Shown in pieces: positions 1,933 to 58,827 of a stretch of 64,000 nt of DNA (positions are counted from its first letter, which is position 1; each line of letters begins with the position of its first letter). Source of the DNA: Escherichia coli (GTDB lineage Bacteria > Pseudomonadota > Gammaproteobacteria > Enterobacterales > Enterobacteriaceae); NCBI RefSeq assembly GCF_030013205.1, contig NZ_CP122648.1, one strand, 5' to 3'. The translations under genes were made by a program, and so were the position numbers. The notes beneath the pieces are model-generated. The model was not told the origin of the DNA and ran no database searches. It saw only the letters and a list, made by a program, of their open reading frames with translations.

Positions 1933-1959
1933 ACAAAAAACGCGCCCGAAGGTGCGTTG
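1933..1959. repeat. attL copy of 27-bp direct repeat (acaaaaaacgcgcccgaaggTgcgttg)
   Basis: Identical to 36563..36589 apart from one mismatch (T vs C); lies next to the integrase gene and abuts the pheL -35 region. Confidence 0.65.
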
Positions 1960-5667: not shown

Positions 5668-5790
5668 GAAACCAGAACATGCACACACAAAAAAACCGCT
5701 TGCCATGCCGTAATCAGTCAGGTTACATTTCCGCTGCACCTCATAAAACGGGTGCCGGGATTCTCAACCCGATACAGAGCAAAGCGCATA

Positions 5791-5810
5791 ACCGCGCCAG
5801 CGGTTTTTTT
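5791..5810 (+). terminator. Putative intrinsic terminator inside the noncoding gap
   Basis: accgc-gcca-gcggt hairpin followed by a run of seven T. Confidence 0.35.
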
Positions 5811-5989
5811 GTGCGTACTGTATTGCCACGTCTTTTTCGCGTCAGAATTATGGCGGGGCGTACGGGGCCGACTTCGGTCGGGCCGGATTCTTTGCTCTCC
5901 GGTGTTGAGAACCCTGTACGTCTCGCCACCCCGAGATTCTCAACTCTGGATGGTGAGTTATTTCTATCACCGAGCAAAGAGGCCACACC

Positions 5990-6220
5990 ATGGCAAACCG
6001 CAAACAGCACCGCGCATACGCTGCGCGTCGTCACATCCAGACTGAAATCAACCGCAGACTTTCCCGCGCATTCCGCGTCGCTAAAATCATGCACATCAAT
6101 ATGCTGCATGAGCGTAGCTGCGAACTTTCAAACCTCTATTCATCCGCTGTTTTCAGCTATCTGGCGGATGATCTGCGCGAGCTTCAGCAGCTCTTCCAGC
6201 AGCAAAACAAACCCCATTAA
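5990..6220 (+). CDS. Hypothetical protein
   Basis: 76-aa ORF preceded by an AAGAGG RBS. Confidence 0.4.
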   Translation: MANRKQHRAYAARRHIQTEINRRLSRAFRVAKIMHINMLHERSCELSNLYSSAVFSYLADDLRELQQLFQQQNKPH

Positions 6221-6292
6221 TTCCTGTTCCGGGCCTTTCCTGCACCTTGCGGCGGGAGGCCTTCGCACATCTGTAGTAAAGAGAATTGCAGC

Positions 6293-6682
6293 ATGATTGA
6301 CGCTCATGACTTCACAAGATGGGTGCGCACACAGGACACCCGTCTGGCTCCCGTTCTTCAGGGATTATTTGATCTCTACATCCGTGGTCGTGACAACAGA
6401 GCACGCACCACAAAACCGGAGAATGCAGACACCCTTTATTTCACAGTAGACGACTGCTACCGCGTGGACTTCACACCACACGGGCTGGCGTTGCACTGCC
6501 TGACACCACACGGCGAATCACTACTGGCGTATTACGACTCCCCGGCCTCCGTATTTGCGGCAATGCTGGCGCATCGCACTGCTGGCGGGTGTGCCTCGCT
6601 GAGTGAATACACCGCTGAATTTGACCGCCTTTCCGCCATCTTCTCGCAGGAGTGGCAGCGCGTGACGGGATACCAGCCATGA
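6293..6682 (+). CDS. Hypothetical protein immediately upstream of gpA
   Basis: 129-aa ORF overlapping the gpA start. Confidence 0.4.
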   Translation: MIDAHDFTRWVRTQDTRLAPVLQGLFDLYIRGRDNRARTTKPENADTLYFTVDDCYRVDFTPHGLALHCLTPHGESLLAYYDSPASVFAAMLAHRTAGGCASLSEYTAEFDRLSAIFSQEWQRVTGYQP

Positions 6683-33985: not shown

Positions 33986-34749
33986 CATATCCACCACCTG
34001 ATTAATGCGTTCTGCGTGCCATTCCGGCGCTGTATGCACACACCGCGTAAACGGTGTGACGTAAAGTGTGAGGTGACGTAAACCGCGCTACCCCCTCCAA
34101 CCCGCGGGTTTTGTGTCGAAACAGTTTTTCAGTTTTCTGCCGTGCAAAACTGACCGCCAGCCCGCGCAGCAACTGAGGAAAAAGCGAAGATCTGAAATTT
34201 CACGCTTTGAAATTTTTTGCAGTTTTCAGAGGGATTTTTACGATCTCATGAATGGCAGGAGAAAGAAAACAGGCTGATATTAAAAGAGTTTTCATACTTT
34301 ACGTGGGACAAGACGCGATCGCGAAAGGATCGCATCAAAAAATCTTCAAACAACGAAGCCAGACGCGGCGCGGCCTGCGTAAGATTGAGAGTCAAAATTA
34401 AACTGAAAAAAGGATCAATACCGCGCCTCGATCGCACATGACGATCTACGCAGCAACAGGACAAAAAAACCGGCGCGAACGCCGGCGGAAGCATGTATCA
34501 AATGCGTGACTGAATAATGTCTACGGTCGGGAATTTTATATCAAAAGGCTGACAGGCCTCAACGGATTGAAACAAGGGAAAAAACCAGGCTAGAATTCGC
34601 GCGGGTGCCTTTCGGCTGATGGTCGGAGGGAATACCCGAAGGCCGGATGTGGAAAGGCCCCGGAAAACATTTCTGTTTAACCGAGGCCCTAACATATCTA
34701 CCTTAAGCAAGTGATAGGTTAGCGCCTCTCCAACAAAGGAGCAAGCGCT

Positions 34750-34890
34750 ATGTCGCAAAAATCGCTTACGGCCATCACGTTCTGCGTGACGGTAATCCTC
34801 ATCATCTGGATGCTGCACGGCTCGCTGTGTGAAATACGGATGAGCTTCTGGGGAGCGGAGTTTGCGGCGTTCTTACAGTGTAAACAGTAA
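34750..34890 (+). CDS. Hok/Gef-family type I toxin (46 aa)
   Basis: MSQKSLTAITFCVTVILIIWMLHGSLCEIRMSFWGAEFAAFLQCKQ carries the Hok/Gef SLCEIR...AAF signature; long structured leader upstream; below the ORF-track cutoff. Confidence 0.65.
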   Translation: MSQKSLTAITFCVTVILIIWMLHGSLCEIRMSFWGAEFAAFLQCKQ

Positions 34891-35025
34891 GGAAACCGCG
34901 ACGGGGGAGCAATCCCCCGTCAATCGGTTGCCAGGGTATGGTCGAAGTGGCACCCAAATTTAAATTGAGGCCCACCAGTAAGAGTGGTGGGCTTAACGCT
35001 TATTTAAATTTGAAAGGAACTCTTT

Positions 35026-35322
35026 ATGAGTGAAATGGTATTTTGTCGCGGATGCGGCAAGGAAATACATAAAGATGCCACATCCTGCCCCAATTGTGGA
35101 GCACCTCAAAGAACAGCAAGTTCAAAAAGCAGAATGACAGCCGCACTACTGGCTTTCTTTTTAGGTGGTCTTGGAGCACACAAATTTTATTTAGGTAAAG
35201 TGGGGCAAGGATTCCTTTACCTTATTTTTTGCTGGACATTCATTCCGGCAATCGTGGCATTTATTGAGTTTTTTATCTATCTATGCACCTCTGATGAAGA
35301 CTTTGCCCGCAAATATGGCTAA
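35026..35322 (+). CDS. Zinc-ribbon plus TM2-domain membrane protein
   Basis: CRGCGKEIHKDATSCPNCGAP zinc ribbon followed by LLAFFLGGLGAHKFYLGKVGQGFLYL; AT-rich. Confidence 0.6.
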   Translation: MSEMVFCRGCGKEIHKDATSCPNCGAPQRTASSKSRMTAALLAFFLGGLGAHKFYLGKVGQGFLYLIFCWTFIPAIVAFIEFFIYLCTSDEDFARKYG

Positions 35323-35511: not shown

Positions 35512-35709
35512 ATGACGCAAAATGTACGATGCAAAAATTGCAACAAACTACTTGCCCGCGCCTCATTTCACTACATTGAAATAAAATGTCCGCGCTGCAA
35601 AACACTTAACCAGATAACGAGAGCCATCGAGCACCCCACACACATGAGGAGTTATGACCGTGGGGATCGCAATCCAGCACCAACCAGCACATATACCGGA
35701 ACACACTAA
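35512..35709 (+). CDS. com: Com-like zinc-finger translational regulator (phage Mu Com family, putative)
   Basis: MTQNVRCKNCNKLLARASFHYIEIKCPRCKTLNQITRAIEHPT vs recalled Mu Com MKSIRCKNCNKLLFKADSFDHIEIRCPRCK...CEHPT; AAGAGGTG RBS; overlaps the 5' end of the methyltransferase ORF. Confidence 0.6.
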   Translation: MTQNVRCKNCNKLLARASFHYIEIKCPRCKTLNQITRAIEHPTHMRSYDRGDRNPAPTSTYTGTH

Positions 35710-36460
35710 GGTTTATCAGACTGACAATGCCACGCTCTGTCGTGGGAATGCGCTGGAAATATTGCCGCTGATTGAGCCAGAAAGCATTGATGCCTTAATC
35801 ACTGACCCGCCTTACAGTTCGGGTGCGACACACAAGGCCGGACGCACCAACCAGGGCAGCCATGCAAAATATCTGAACGGCGAGAACCTTCACCGCTTTG
35901 ATGGGTTCGCTGGTGAAAACATGGACGCCCGTTCGTGGGCTTACTGGACACAATTATGGATGGCACAGGCACACCGTGCAGTCAGGCCGGGCGGTTATGC
36001 CCTGGTATTTACTGACTGGCGACAACTACCAGCTTTAACCGATGCGTTTCAGGCCAGTGGCTTTACATGGCGCGGCATCATTGCGTGGAACAAGGGGAGG
36101 GGGTCACGAACACCCCATACGGGGTATTTCAGGCATCAGTGCGAATACATCGTCTGGGGCAGCAAAGGCCATTTAGATAAATCGCCTTCGGGGCCGTTCG
36201 ACGGTTGCATGACGTACCCGGTTATCCCGTCAAAGAAAATGCACCCGACCGGAAAACCAGAAGAACTAATGGCGGAACTGGTCAGGACTGTGAATAGTGG
36301 CGGAACAGTCCTTGATCCTTTTATGGGGTCAGGGACAACGGGTGTGGCTGCACTGAAAGCAGGGCGAAAATTTATTGGTATAGAAACCAGTGATCATTAT
36401 TTTGAGGTAGCAGCGCAGCGGCTTCGAGAGACTATTACCACAACCATTTCGGCTACATAA
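35654..36460 (+). CDS. DNA amino-methyltransferase (N6-adenine or N4-cytosine; DPPY motif before the AdoMet motif)
   Basis: ...IDALITDPPYSSG... and ...VLDPFMGSGTTGVAALKAGRKFIGIE...; start lies inside the com-like ORF (ATG 35654, or GTG 35660). Confidence 0.8.
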   Translation: MTVGIAIQHQPAHIPEHTKVYQTDNATLCRGNALEILPLIEPESIDALITDPPYSSGATHKAGRTNQGSHAKYLNGENLHRFDGFAGENMDARSWAYWTQLWMAQAHRAVRPGGYALVFTDWRQLPALTDAFQASGFTWRGIIAWNKGRGSRTPHTGYFRHQCEYIVWGSKGHLDKSPSGPFDGCMTYPVIPSKKMHPTGKPEELMAELVRTVNSGGTVLDPFMGSGTTGVAALKAGRKFIGIETSDHYFEVAAQRLRETITTTISAT

Positions 36461-36562: not shown

Positions 36563-36589
36563 ACAAAAAACGCGCCCGAAGGCGCGTTG
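36563..36589. repeat. attR copy of the 27-bp direct repeat; doubles as the raiA intrinsic terminator
   Basis: acaaaaaacgcgcccgaaggcgcgttg; hairpin aacgcgcc-cgaa-ggcgcgtt plus T-run on the raiA strand. Confidence 0.65.
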
Positions 36590-36611: not shown

Positions 36612-37007
<396 letters not shown>

Positions 37008-58137: not shown

Positions 58138-58725
58138 TTAATAGAAAATGCGTACCGCGCAATAGACCAGCAGCAGCGCGAGCACTATATTTAACTGGCG
58201 ACCATACTGGCGAAACAATCGCTGAAACAGGTGCCCCGCCAGCGCCCAGCACACATTGCCAAACGTCCCAATCATCGCCAGCAAAACGCTGACGCCAATT
58301 ATCCAGCTTAGCGCCTGCGTTTGCGGCAGGACAAACGTCGACAGTGCTGTAATGCCATACAAAATGATTTTGACGTTCACAAACTGCAAAGCAAAGCTGG
58401 CCCAAAAACTGATTGGTTTTGTCTGAAGCCCATCTTCCTTTGTTGGACTGGTAGCGATTTTCCACGCCAGCCAGACAATATATGCCGCCCCCGCCCAACT
58501 CAACAGATGCACTGCTGCCGGGTCGATAACAGCCAGTGAAAACGAAATTCCCGCGCATAGCAACATGACGATTAAAAATCCCAGACTCATCCCTGCCAGC
58601 ACGCGAGTACTCTGACGAAATCCGTGCGTTGTAGCTGAGCTAAGGGCGAGAATATTGTTCGGTCCTGGCGTCATGGCGGTAATCAGGGTGTAAGTCCAAA
58701 AAGCACTTAAAAGGGTCGGTGTCAC
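58138..58725 (-). CDS. eamB: Cysteine/O-acetylserine exporter EamB (YfiK; RhtB/LysE family)
   Basis: 195-aa polytopic membrane protein MTPTLLSAFWTYTLITAMTPGPNNILALSSATTHGF... Confidence 0.9.
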   Translation of the reverse strand: MTPTLLSAFWTYTLITAMTPGPNNILALSSATTHGFRQSTRVLAGMSLGFLIVMLLCAGISFSLAVIDPAAVHLLSWAGAAYIVWLAWKIATSPTKEDGLQTKPISFWASFALQFVNVKIILYGITALSTFVLPQTQALSWIIGVSVLLAMIGTFGNVCWALAGHLFQRLFRQYGRQLNIVLALLLVYCAVRIFY

Positions 58726-58827
58726 TTGTTATCTCCTCTGTTTTGGTAGACAGTACCCGACACGGAACATTTAAAAAAATGAATGTTTTTACATTCTAAA
58801 TTCGATATTTTCGATAGGTTTGGGGTT

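What the first reader, a model, noticed from the sequence alone, without database searches (positions are those of the whole stretch)
34560..34925. Hok/Gef-type type I toxin locus inside the prophage
A 46-aa ORF (MSQKSLTAITFCVTVILIIWMLHGSLCEIRMSFWGAEFAAFLQCKQ) has the Hok/Gef SLCEIR...AAF signature and a single transmembrane helix. It is preceded by a long GC-rich structured leader and followed by a hairpin terminator, the usual hok/sok mRNA layout. It may stabilise the prophage or act in abortive infection. It falls below the 60-aa cutoff of the supplied ORF track.
Basis: partly seen in the sequence, partly recalled or inferred. Interest (0 to 1): 0.5.

Follow-up and report, generated by a model that had tools for sequence, protein, structure and literature searches.

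The report
Prophage hok/sok toxin locus without mok
This is a real but already catalogued Hok-type membrane-toxin gene with its antisense-RNA control region, carried as cargo near the end of a P2-family prophage in E. coli; its one unusual feature is that the small leader reading frame (mok), which the textbook hok system needs, cannot exist here.

Summary
The 46-aa ORF is at 34750..34890 (+) exactly as described. It is a Hok-family toxin (Pfam PF01848 E=4e-7; PHROG 251 E=2.5e-23). RefSeq already annotates it as WP_000078920.1, 'Hok/Gef family protein'. It belongs to 'cluster 72' of a 2026 Hok catalogue, where a variant differing by one residue was reported toxic on induction.

The surrounding RNA anatomy is hok-like:
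- a strong promoter (34567..34596) with a predicted start near 34603;
- a 5' element that can pair either with the 3' end (34940..34955) or with an internal box (34653..34662);
- a predicted ~64-nt antisense Sok RNA (34708→34645, minus strand) behind a conserved promoter.

The locus lies 1.6 kb inside the right end of a 34.6-kb prophage bounded by 27-nt repeats.

- the hairpin after the stop codon is a conserved internal stem-loop, not a terminator;
- the leader is not GC-rich;
- the unit runs to about 34995, not 34925.

It is not the characterised hokW-sokW. No mok frame is possible: all three frames are closed upstream of the hok ribosome-binding site, here and in most relatives, yet the toxin gene is under purifying selection.

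Verdict: ordinary, already known, low interest. The mok-less design is a modest open question.

The parts
34567..34596 (+). hok mRNA promoter, TTGAAA-18 nt-TAGAAT
   Evidence: Consensus scan gives 10 of 12 matches. The -10 box TAGAAT/TAGATT/TAAATT is kept in all relatives, while the sequence upstream of it diverges.
34603..34995 (+). Predicted full-length hok mRNA, about 390 nt (5' end inferred, 3' end inferred)
   Evidence: The Rfam sok-model match starts at 34603. Homology with P88 and Stx-phage copies runs from the -10 box to 34955. A hairpin at 34968-34992 follows. The ends have not been mapped experimentally.
34603..34617 (+). tac-like 5' element, GGGUGCCUUUCGGCU
   Evidence: It pairs with 34940-34955 (15 bp with one bulge) in the MFE and consensus folds. 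It can also pair with 34653-34662. Pairing holds in 95-99% of cells across 55 variants, against 35-62% when slid.
34653..34662 (+). ucb-like box, AAAGGCCCCG: alternative partner of the 5' element and partner of the GAGG box
   Evidence: The matching length change in Salmonella copies (UUCG:CGAA instead of UUU:AAA) is visible.
34619..34714 (+). Upstream ORF (ATG 34619 or GTG 34649 to UGA 34712-14). It is not a mok equivalent and stops 35 nt before the hok ATG.
   Evidence: Its start codons are not conserved in Salmonella or Klebsiella copies, and its end point varies widely among close variants.
34683..34687 (+). GAGGC box, at the position of the R1 mok Shine-Dalgarno, with no start codon after it
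   Evidence: The Rfam alignment to the sok model. It is conserved in all copies. It can pair with the ucb box (34656-63) or with the dcb-like GCCUC at 34724-28.
34645..34708 (-). Predicted Sok antisense RNA, about 64 nt: 10-nt free 5' tail, long hairpin, UUUCC tail
   Evidence: The fold is -25.2 kcal/mol, z=-3.64. The position matches annotated sokC of K-12 when mapped through the Rfam model. The region facing its 5' tail (34691-34715) is the most variable part of the module. No expression data.
34716..34744 (-). Predicted Sok promoter: -35 TTGCTC (34744→34739), 17 nt, -10 TAACCT (34721→34716)
   Evidence: The -10 is kept in 55 of 56 variants and the -35 in 48 of 56, with a variable spacer. 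Two Salmonella copies have TATCCT. The match to R1's TTGCGC-17-TATCCT rests on my recollection of the R1 sequence. It falls below the simple scan's threshold.
34736..34741 (+). hok Shine-Dalgarno, AAGGAG, 8 nt before the ATG
   Evidence: Read directly from the sequence. Conserved as AAGGAG or AGGAGG in all variants. In the single-sequence fold it pairs with CUCC at 34728-31.
34750..34890 (+). hok ORF, 46 aa, single-pass membrane toxin (Hok cluster 72)
   Evidence: Toxicity of the V15A variant 72_1621 is reported in bioRxiv 10.1101/2025.08.07.668861.
34900..34921 (+).
   Evidence: Two pairs show compensatory changes in 25 cells, and 99.6% of cells are paired. There is no U-run on the + strand.
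34940..34955 (+). fbi-like 3' element, GGUCGAAGUGGCACCC, complementary to the 5' end
   Evidence: Homology between unrelated phage contexts ends exactly here. The pair 34615:34942 is G.U here, G-C in Stx-phage copies and A-U in Salmonella copies.
34968..34992 (+). Probable transcription terminator hairpin, specific to this context
   Evidence: A 10-bp stem at -18.1 kcal/mol, followed by UUAACGCUUAUUU. The P88 copy has a different, canonical terminator at the same place. The scan did not call it.

Best explanation
This is a hok/sok-family type I toxin-antitoxin module of Hok 'cluster 72'. It is carried as cargo 1.6 kb inside the right end of a 34.6-kb P2-family prophage inserted between pheL and raiA of E. 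coli.

Shown here:
- The ORF encodes a Hok-family peptide under purifying selection.
- The conserved unit runs from a strong promoter to a 3' box complementary to the 5' end.
- The 5' end has two mutually exclusive partners: the 3' fbi-like box and an internal ucb-like box.
- A minus-strand hairpin RNA with a free 5' tail sits where K-12 sokC maps, behind conserved promoter hexamers.
- No mok frame can exist.

Inferred mechanism, by homology with R1 hok/sok:
1. The ~390-nt mRNA is made constantly but stays inert. The 5'-3' fold-back locks a structure in which the ucb box covers the GAGG box, and the hok start region is paired with codons 36-39.
2. Slow 3' trimming removes the fbi box. The 5' end switches to the ucb box and the Sok target is exposed.
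3. Short-lived Sok RNA binds and the duplex is destroyed.
4. If Sok supply stops (loss of the prophage, or transcription shut-off on induction or infection), the stable trimmed mRNA is translated and the 46-aa peptide damages the inner membrane.

Because mok is absent, translation must start directly at hok's own strong Shine-Dalgarno sequence, presumably after structural opening, rather than by coupling to a leader ORF.
For: Protein:
- Pfam HOK_GEF and PHROG 251.
- RefSeq 'Hok/Gef family protein' in seven genomes with >=99% identical matches.
- 68 homologous clusters, almost all 46 aa.
- pN/pS 0.36 overall, and 0.40 among copies in which mok is impossible.
- Cluster-72 peptides 72_1621 (one residue different) and 72_1589 were cloned. 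The paper names only three other sequences as non-toxic.

RNA:
- Rfam sok model E=1e-8 on the hok-sense strand.
- Promoter.
- tac/fbi and tac/ucb pairings compatible in 95-99% of cells, against 35-62% when slid.
- Covariation in the 3' hairpin and in the Sok hairpin.
- Three pair types at 34615:34942.
- Sok fold z=-3.6.
- Sok promoter hexamers conserved around a variable spacer.

Context:
- att repeats, integrase and gpA-like protein.
- Relatives sit at the ends of P2-like prophages, next to lom in Stx phages, on plasmids and in tandem arrays.
Against: - The Rfam sok hit is below the gathering score (44.8 against 59). The NCBIfam Hok models are far below their cut-offs (35.8 against 89; 23.6 against 73).
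- No transcript data exist for either RNA. The Sok promoter fails the simple consensus scan.
- The tac/fbi and tac/ucb stems are nearly invariant in the close set, so most of their support is compatibility rather than covariation.
- In R1, stop codons in mok upstream of hok abolish Hok translation (PMC9841398). By that precedent a mok-less copy might be silent.
- The toxicity data come from a preprint, used a synthetic ribosome-binding site, and tested a one-residue variant rather than this exact peptide.
Confidence: 0.8

Rival explanations
1. Silent relic. The locus is a hok/sok homologue whose toxin is no longer translated because the mok leader frame needed for translational coupling has been lost. 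The RNAs may still be made, but the module has no killing activity in its native form.
For: - All three frames carry stops between the GAGG box and the hok SD in the window and in 35 of 55 close variants.
- From general knowledge, several K-12 chromosomal hok loci are inactive.
Against: - Copies that cannot have mok still keep intact 46-aa ORFs, with pN/pS 0.40 at pS 0.53. That is not expected for an untranslated ORF.
- The hok SD AAGGAG and the ATG are invariant.
- The whole set of RNA elements is conserved across E. coli, Salmonella and Klebsiella and across phage, plasmid and chromosomal contexts.
- Part of the ORF conservation could reflect RNA-structure constraints. However, that applies mainly to codons 34-46, and the test used codons 1-33.
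Confidence: 0.15
2. Same molecular module, different biological role. Instead of stabilising the prophage or aborting infections, it helps the phage's own lytic cycle by permeabilising the membrane after induction, as reported for hokW-sokW of Sp5.
For: - hokW-sokW roughly doubled Sp5 progeny release, and sokW disappeared after mitomycin C (PMC8621323).
- Cluster-72 copies sit in late or cargo regions of temperate phages: next to tail and baseplate genes, lom, or gpD-ogr.
Against: - hokW is a different locus, only 34% identical over 35 residues, and it has mok.
- Cluster-72 copies also occur on plasmids and as chromosomal tandem arrays with no phage around them, which fits a generic addiction or selfish module.
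- No experiment addresses this locus.
Confidence: 0.3
3. Chance ORF with a fortuitous motif, not a gene.
For: It is short (46 aa), and the curated NCBIfam and Rfam thresholds are not reached.
Against: - Pfam and PHROG hits.
- Dozens of 46-aa homologues.
- Purifying selection.
- RefSeq annotation.
- Toxicity reported for near-identical peptides.
Confidence: 0.01

Closest known systems
Hok 'cluster 72' of Escalera-Maurer et al. (bioRxiv 10.1101/2025.08.07.668861)
   Same: The window's peptide differs from tested member 72_1621 by one residue (V15A). The Stx-phage lom-adjacent copy equals 72_1589. The cluster is listed as a high-abundance cluster, and the text names only three other sequences as non-toxic. 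The paper also reports hok enrichment in prophages.
   Different: That study analysed only the coding sequence and explicitly left mok, Sok and the mRNA structure unexamined. The exact V15 peptide was not found among the tested sequences. Table S1 was cut when stored, so its membership list could not be checked in full.
hok/mok/sok of plasmid R1
   Same: Hok-family peptide (12 of 31 identical). Leader homologous by the Rfam sok model. 5' tac with fbi and ucb alternative partners, a GAGG box with a dcb-like partner, and antisense Sok with a free 5' tail plus hairpin behind a promoter overlapping the hok SD region. The element definitions come from PMC9841398.
   Different: There is no mok: the position of the R1 mok AUG reads AUA here, and every frame is closed before the hok SD. 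The peptide is 46 aa rather than 52 and lacks the C-terminal YES motif. It is prophage-borne rather than plasmid-borne.
hokW/mokW/sokW of phage 933W and Sakai prophage 5
   Same: A prophage-borne hok-family module with demonstrated type I toxin-antitoxin activity (PMC8621323). Both are given the PHROG label 'MokW-like host killing'.
   Different: It is a separate locus at a different place in the same Stx phages (933W 58460-58734, against the lom-adjacent copy). It is 51 aa, 34% identical over 35 residues, and has an in-frame mokW extension overlapped by sokW. The Sp5 experiments therefore do not apply directly to this locus.
hokC (gef)/mokC/sokC of E. coli K-12
   Same: The same Rfam model matches both leaders in the hok-sense orientation. 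The annotated sokC position maps onto the predicted Sok here.
   Different: K-12 scores 118 bits and this locus 44.8. mokC is an in-frame extension of hokC, whereas the equivalent extension here is blocked by TAG at -30. Peptide identity is 24%.

Membership tests
Hok/Gef toxin family (Pfam PF01848) | Small peptide matching the HOK_GEF profile, with the conserved Cys/Thr in the helix and the L-C-E core | tested here: met
   Pfam E=4.3e-7, residues 7-44 on model positions 5-42 of 42. L26, C27, E28, E37, A39 and F41 are invariant in the alignment with R1 Hok, HokW and HokC. PHROG 251 E=2.5e-23.
Hok/Gef toxin family (NCBIfam curated models) | Score above the curated cut-off of NF007290 (HokA) or NF007279 (Hok family) | tested here: not met
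   35.8 bits against cut-off 89, and 23.6 against 73. RefSeq nevertheless names the protein 'Hok/Gef family protein'.
Hok/Gef toxin family | Toxic to the cell when expressed | not testable with these tools
   Literature only. Cluster-72 peptides 72_1621 (V15A variant) and 72_1589 were cloned and are not among the three non-toxic sequences named. This is a preprint and used a synthetic SD.
[quoted passage not shown] | Leader matching the Rfam sok family RF01794 at its gathering score | tested here: not met
   44.8 bits against 59, E=1.1e-8, full model length, hok-sense strand.
[quoted passage not shown] | 5' tac element complementary to a 3' fbi element (fold-back closure of the full-length mRNA) | tested here: met
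   A 15-bp pairing of 34603-17 with 34940-55 in the MFE and consensus folds. 94.9% of cells are paired across 55 variants. Three pair types at one position once divergent copies are included. Module homology ends at the fbi box.
[quoted passage not shown] | Alternative tac/ucb stem, and ucb or dcb pairing with the leader SD box (conformational switch) | tested here: met
   A 10-bp tac/ucb stem, 98.9% paired. GAGGC can pair with the ucb box or with the dcb-like GCCUC. The columns are nearly invariant, so the support is compatibility plus a matching length change in Salmonella copies. The switch itself was not observed.
[quoted passage not shown] | Antisense Sok RNA gene inside the leader with its own promoter | tested here: inconclusive
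   Conserved -10 TAACCT (55 of 56) and -35 TTGCTC (48 of 56) around a variable spacer. Stable hairpin RNA with a free 5' tail. Position equivalent to the annotated sokC. No transcript evidence, and the hexamers overlap other constrained elements.
[quoted passage not shown] | mok leader ORF overlapping hok and translated at least up to the hok SD | tested here: not met
   Stops at -60/-30, -38/-35 and -46 close all three frames before the SD at -14. The same is true in 35 of 55 close variants. The upstream ATG/GTG is not conserved in divergent copies.
[quoted passage not shown] | 3' processing to a translatable truncated mRNA; RNase III cleavage of the Sok duplex | not testable with these tools
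   Needs Northern blots or RACE in a lysogen.
hokW-sokW of Sp5/933W | Orthology with the characterised hokW locus | tested here: not met
   Different position in the same phages, 51 aa, 34% identity over 35 residues, and mokW present.

The most novel reading that the evidence does not exclude
Cluster-72 hok loci form a mechanistically distinct, mok-independent branch of hok/sok. The conserved GAGG box and the variable loop facing the Sok 5' tail would no longer start a leader peptide. Instead they would act as a ribosome loading (standby) site, or purely as a structural switch. Sok would then block toxin synthesis directly or through decay, as in tisB/istR-1, rather than through translational coupling.
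Probability: 0.35. Interest if true: 0.45.

Novelty: already known. Interest (0 to 1): 0.2.

Why it matters
As a finding it mostly confirms routine annotation. Hok genes are known to be enriched in prophages, this peptide family is catalogued, and a near-identical peptide has been reported toxic.

Two things have modest value:
- It shows that the label 'MokW-like host killing' wrongly suggests identity with the characterised hokW-sokW. 933W-type Stx phages in fact carry two unrelated hok loci, one of them missing from the original GenBank records.
- It documents that a large, widely mobile Hok cluster keeps every hok mRNA element except mok, while remaining under purifying selection. In R1, mok translation is mandatory, so this cluster is a natural test of whether coupling to a leader ORF is really essential in the family.

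Tried and rejected
1. I first equated the locus with hokW-sokW of Sp5 because phage records call it 'MokW-like'. A tblastn with R1 Hok rejected this: the real hokW lies elsewhere in those phages.
2. I considered the upstream ORF (ATG 34619 or GTG 34649) as a shifted mok, since about 20 of 56 close variants have a 60-87-codon frame from there into hok. I rejected this because the start codons are missing in Salmonella and Klebsiella copies. That fraction is also about what chance frame phasing across the indel-rich segment would give (my rough estimate, not a computed test).
3. I considered AUA 34694, at the position of the R1 mok AUG, as a non-canonical start. That frame closes after six codons.
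4. I assumed the prophage was P88-like because the module is 96% identical to P88. Only the ~375-bp module is shared, and the prophage body matches known phages only in tail-fibre segments.
5. I tested the post-stop hairpin as a terminator. It has no U-run on the + strand.
That scan forces 34852-34871 to be invariant in the close set, so conservation there was judged only from the independently fetched divergent copies.
7. A degenerate pattern search for further copies in the window was mis-specified and found nothing, not even the known site. It is uninformative.

Full report

It is not a chance ORF:
- Pfam HOK_GEF matches residues 7-44 (E=4.3e-7).
- PHROG 251 matches end to end (E=2.5e-23).
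- A search of 5.8 billion proteins returns 68 clusters, nearly all 46 aa, from E. coli, Shigella, Salmonella and Klebsiella. Where a source names them, the name is 'Hok/Gef family protein' in all but one case.

The window is E. coli. The 601-bp query around the ORF has >=99% identical matches in seven complete genomes, the ones listed coming mostly from pigs. RefSeq annotates the ORF there as WP_000078920.1, 'Hok/Gef family protein'. The curated NCBIfam Hok models are missed by a wide margin.

**Prophage context.** pheL lies at 1754-1879 and raiA at 36612-36953. Between them is a 34.6-kb insertion bounded by a 27-nt direct repeat (1933-1959 and 36563-36589, 96% identical). It contains:
- an integrase next to the left repeat, and a P2 gpA-type replication protein;
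- baseplate and tail genes up to 33920;
- a cargo block: hok, a TM2-domain protein, and a Com regulator with a DNA methyltransferase.

The locus is therefore inside the prophage, about 1.6 kb from its right end. The prophage body is not closely related to any deposited phage. Only the ~375-bp hok module (about 34579-34955) is shared. It is 96% identical to phage P88, about 80% identical to Stx phages, and 88-96% identical to several plasmids.

**It is not hokW.** Phage pipelines label this ORF 'MokW-like host killing', and hokW-sokW of Sakai prophage 5 is an experimentally proven type I toxin-antitoxin system (PMC8621323). A tblastn with R1 Hok shows that the real hokW/mokW/sokW lies elsewhere in 933W-type phages (933W 58460-58734). 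It encodes 51 aa and has an in-frame mokW extension. The window's relative in those phages is a second locus next to lom, unannotated in the original records. The two peptides share 12 of 35 residues.

**What is known about this peptide.** A 2026 preprint cataloguing 1,264 Hok peptides in 61 clusters lists two tested members of 'cluster 72':
- 72_1621 is the window's peptide with V15A.
- 72_1589 is the Stx-phage lom-adjacent peptide.

Both were cloned behind an inducible promoter. The text states that 42 of 45 tested homologues were toxic and names the three exceptions, none from cluster 72. The same study reports a four-fold enrichment of hok in prophages. It explicitly did not analyse mok, Sok or the mRNA structure.

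**RNA anatomy: promoter and leader.** A strong sigma-70-type promoter (TTGAAA-18-TAGAAT, 34567-34596) would start transcription near 34603. That is where a full-length but sub-threshold match to Rfam's sok model begins (RF01794, 44.8 bits against gathering score 59, E=1e-8). On the curated K-12 hokC/sokC locus the same model scores 118 bits on the hok-sense strand. So the window's + strand match is the hok mRNA leader.

**RNA anatomy: the 5' switch.** I aligned the window with 54 other distinct versions of the module from viral contigs, 55 sequences in all. I also aligned it with 12 further copies: 11 from Salmonella and Klebsiella, fetched through their proteins, and one Stx-phage copy. Homology begins at the -10 box and ends exactly at GGCACCC (34949-34955), the reverse complement of the 5' end GGGUGCC.

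The 5' element can pair with two mutually exclusive partners, which is the defining design of the hok mRNA switch as described for R1 (PMC9841398):
- The 3' end: 34603-17 with 34940-55, 15 bp. This appears in the MFE fold and in the consensus fold.
- An internal box: AAAGGCCCCG at 34653-62, 10 bp.

Both pairings are compatible in 95-99% of cells, against 35-62% when the partner is slid. Real two-sided covariation is limited to the stem-loop after the stop codon (two pairs, 25 cells) and to the upper part of the Sok hairpin. One tac/fbi position is G.U here, G-C in Stx copies and A-U in Salmonella copies.

**RNA anatomy: 3' end.** A context-specific hairpin at 34968-34992 is the likelier terminator.

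**Sok.**
- On the minus strand, TTGCTC-17-TAACCT (34744→34716) is almost invariant while its spacer varies. Two Salmonella copies have TATCCT, which from my memory of R1 is the R1 Sok -10 box.
- Transcription from about 34708 to 34645 would give a 64-nt RNA with a 10-nt free 5' tail and a long hairpin (-25.2 kcal/mol, z=-3.6).
- Mapping the annotated K-12 sokC through the Rfam model gives the same interval.
- The mRNA segment facing the Sok tail (34691-34715) is the most variable part of the module, with indels. This is consistent with diversification of antisense specificity among paralogues (my inference).
- There are no expression data.

**mok is absent.**
- In the window every frame is closed by stop codons between the conserved GAGG box (34683) and the hok Shine-Dalgarno at 34736. 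The stops lie at -60/-30, -38/-35 and -46 relative to the ATG.
- The same holds in 35 of 55 close variants and in several divergent copies.
- Where R1 has the mok AUG, this locus has AUA, and that frame closes six codons later.
- About 20 close variants do have a long frame from an upstream ATG/GTG into hok. Those start codons are not conserved in the Salmonella and Klebsiella copies, and the fraction is roughly what frame phasing across an indel-rich segment would give (my estimate).

In R1, stop codons in mok upstream of hok abolish Hok synthesis. By that precedent this copy could be silent. Against that:
- Copies in which mok is impossible keep intact 46-aa ORFs, with pN/pS 0.40 at pS 0.53 in codons 1-33.
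- The SD and ATG are invariant.
- All the other RNA elements persist across genera and replicon types.

Codons 34-46 show reduced synonymous change (pS 0.23 against 0.51). In the consensus fold they pair with the hok start region, which indicates an RNA-level constraint.

**Verdict.** [quoted passage not shown] The mechanism I commit to is the R1-type fold-back, 3'-trimming and Sok-decay scheme, with direct rather than mok-coupled initiation at hok. My confidence is about 0.8 for the identity and overall scheme. I put the 'silent relic' rival at about 0.15. The biological role (addiction, lysis helper or defence) is open. Overall interest is low. The mok-less architecture of a whole Hok cluster is a modest, testable curiosity.

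Noticed in passing
window 34460-34562, minus strand: A promoter-like site (TTGAGG-18-TAAAAT, 34562→34533) is followed by a canonical intrinsic terminator (GCCGGCG-TTCG-CGCCGGT plus U7, 34486→34462). Together they would give a transcript of about 60 nt just left of the hok module. Fold z=-2.0. No Rfam match.
   Followed up: partly
window 35026-35322 (+): A 98-aa protein with an N-terminal CxxC...CxxC zinc ribbon and a TM2 membrane domain lies immediately downstream of hok. It matches phrog_10292, of unknown function.
   Followed up: partly
window 35512-36460 (+): A Com-family regulator overlaps the start of a DNA methyltransferase, an arrangement like com/mom of phage Mu. It is the last cargo before the right attachment repeat.
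   Followed up: no
window 5736-5933 (+): Rfam isrK and C4 antisense RNA hits lie side by side at the start of a transcriptional-regulator ORF (5679-6296). These are P1/P7-type immunity RNAs inside a P2-family prophage.
   Followed up: no
window 1933-1959 and 36563-36589: A 27-nt direct repeat (96% identical, 34,630 bp apart) marks the prophage ends. From the sequence, the right copy looks like the raiA terminator hairpin, so integration would duplicate that terminator.
   Followed up: partly
L005 601-980 and AP004402 28548-28700; L138: 933W/Sp5-type Stx phages carry two unrelated hok loci. One is hokW/mokW/sokW. The other is a cluster-72 copy next to lom that the original GenBank records do not annotate; an antisense 'ORF-15c' is annotated instead.
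   Followed up: yes
L137 205-1341; L134 1201-1831; L136 1201-1640: In Salmonella the cluster-72 hok module occurs as tandem arrays: three copies 498 bp apart in L137 and two copies in L134. In L136 it sits next to an Ibs type I toxin gene.
   Followed up: partly
window 34849-34890 with 34750-34759: The last 13 codons of hok are almost invariant at synonymous sites, even in the divergent copies that were fetched through their proteins rather than by the DNA pattern. UUUGCGGCGU (34866-75) pairs with the start region AUGUCGCAAA in the consensus fold. The UC→CU change in some Salmonella copies keeps the pairing through wobble.
   Followed up: partly
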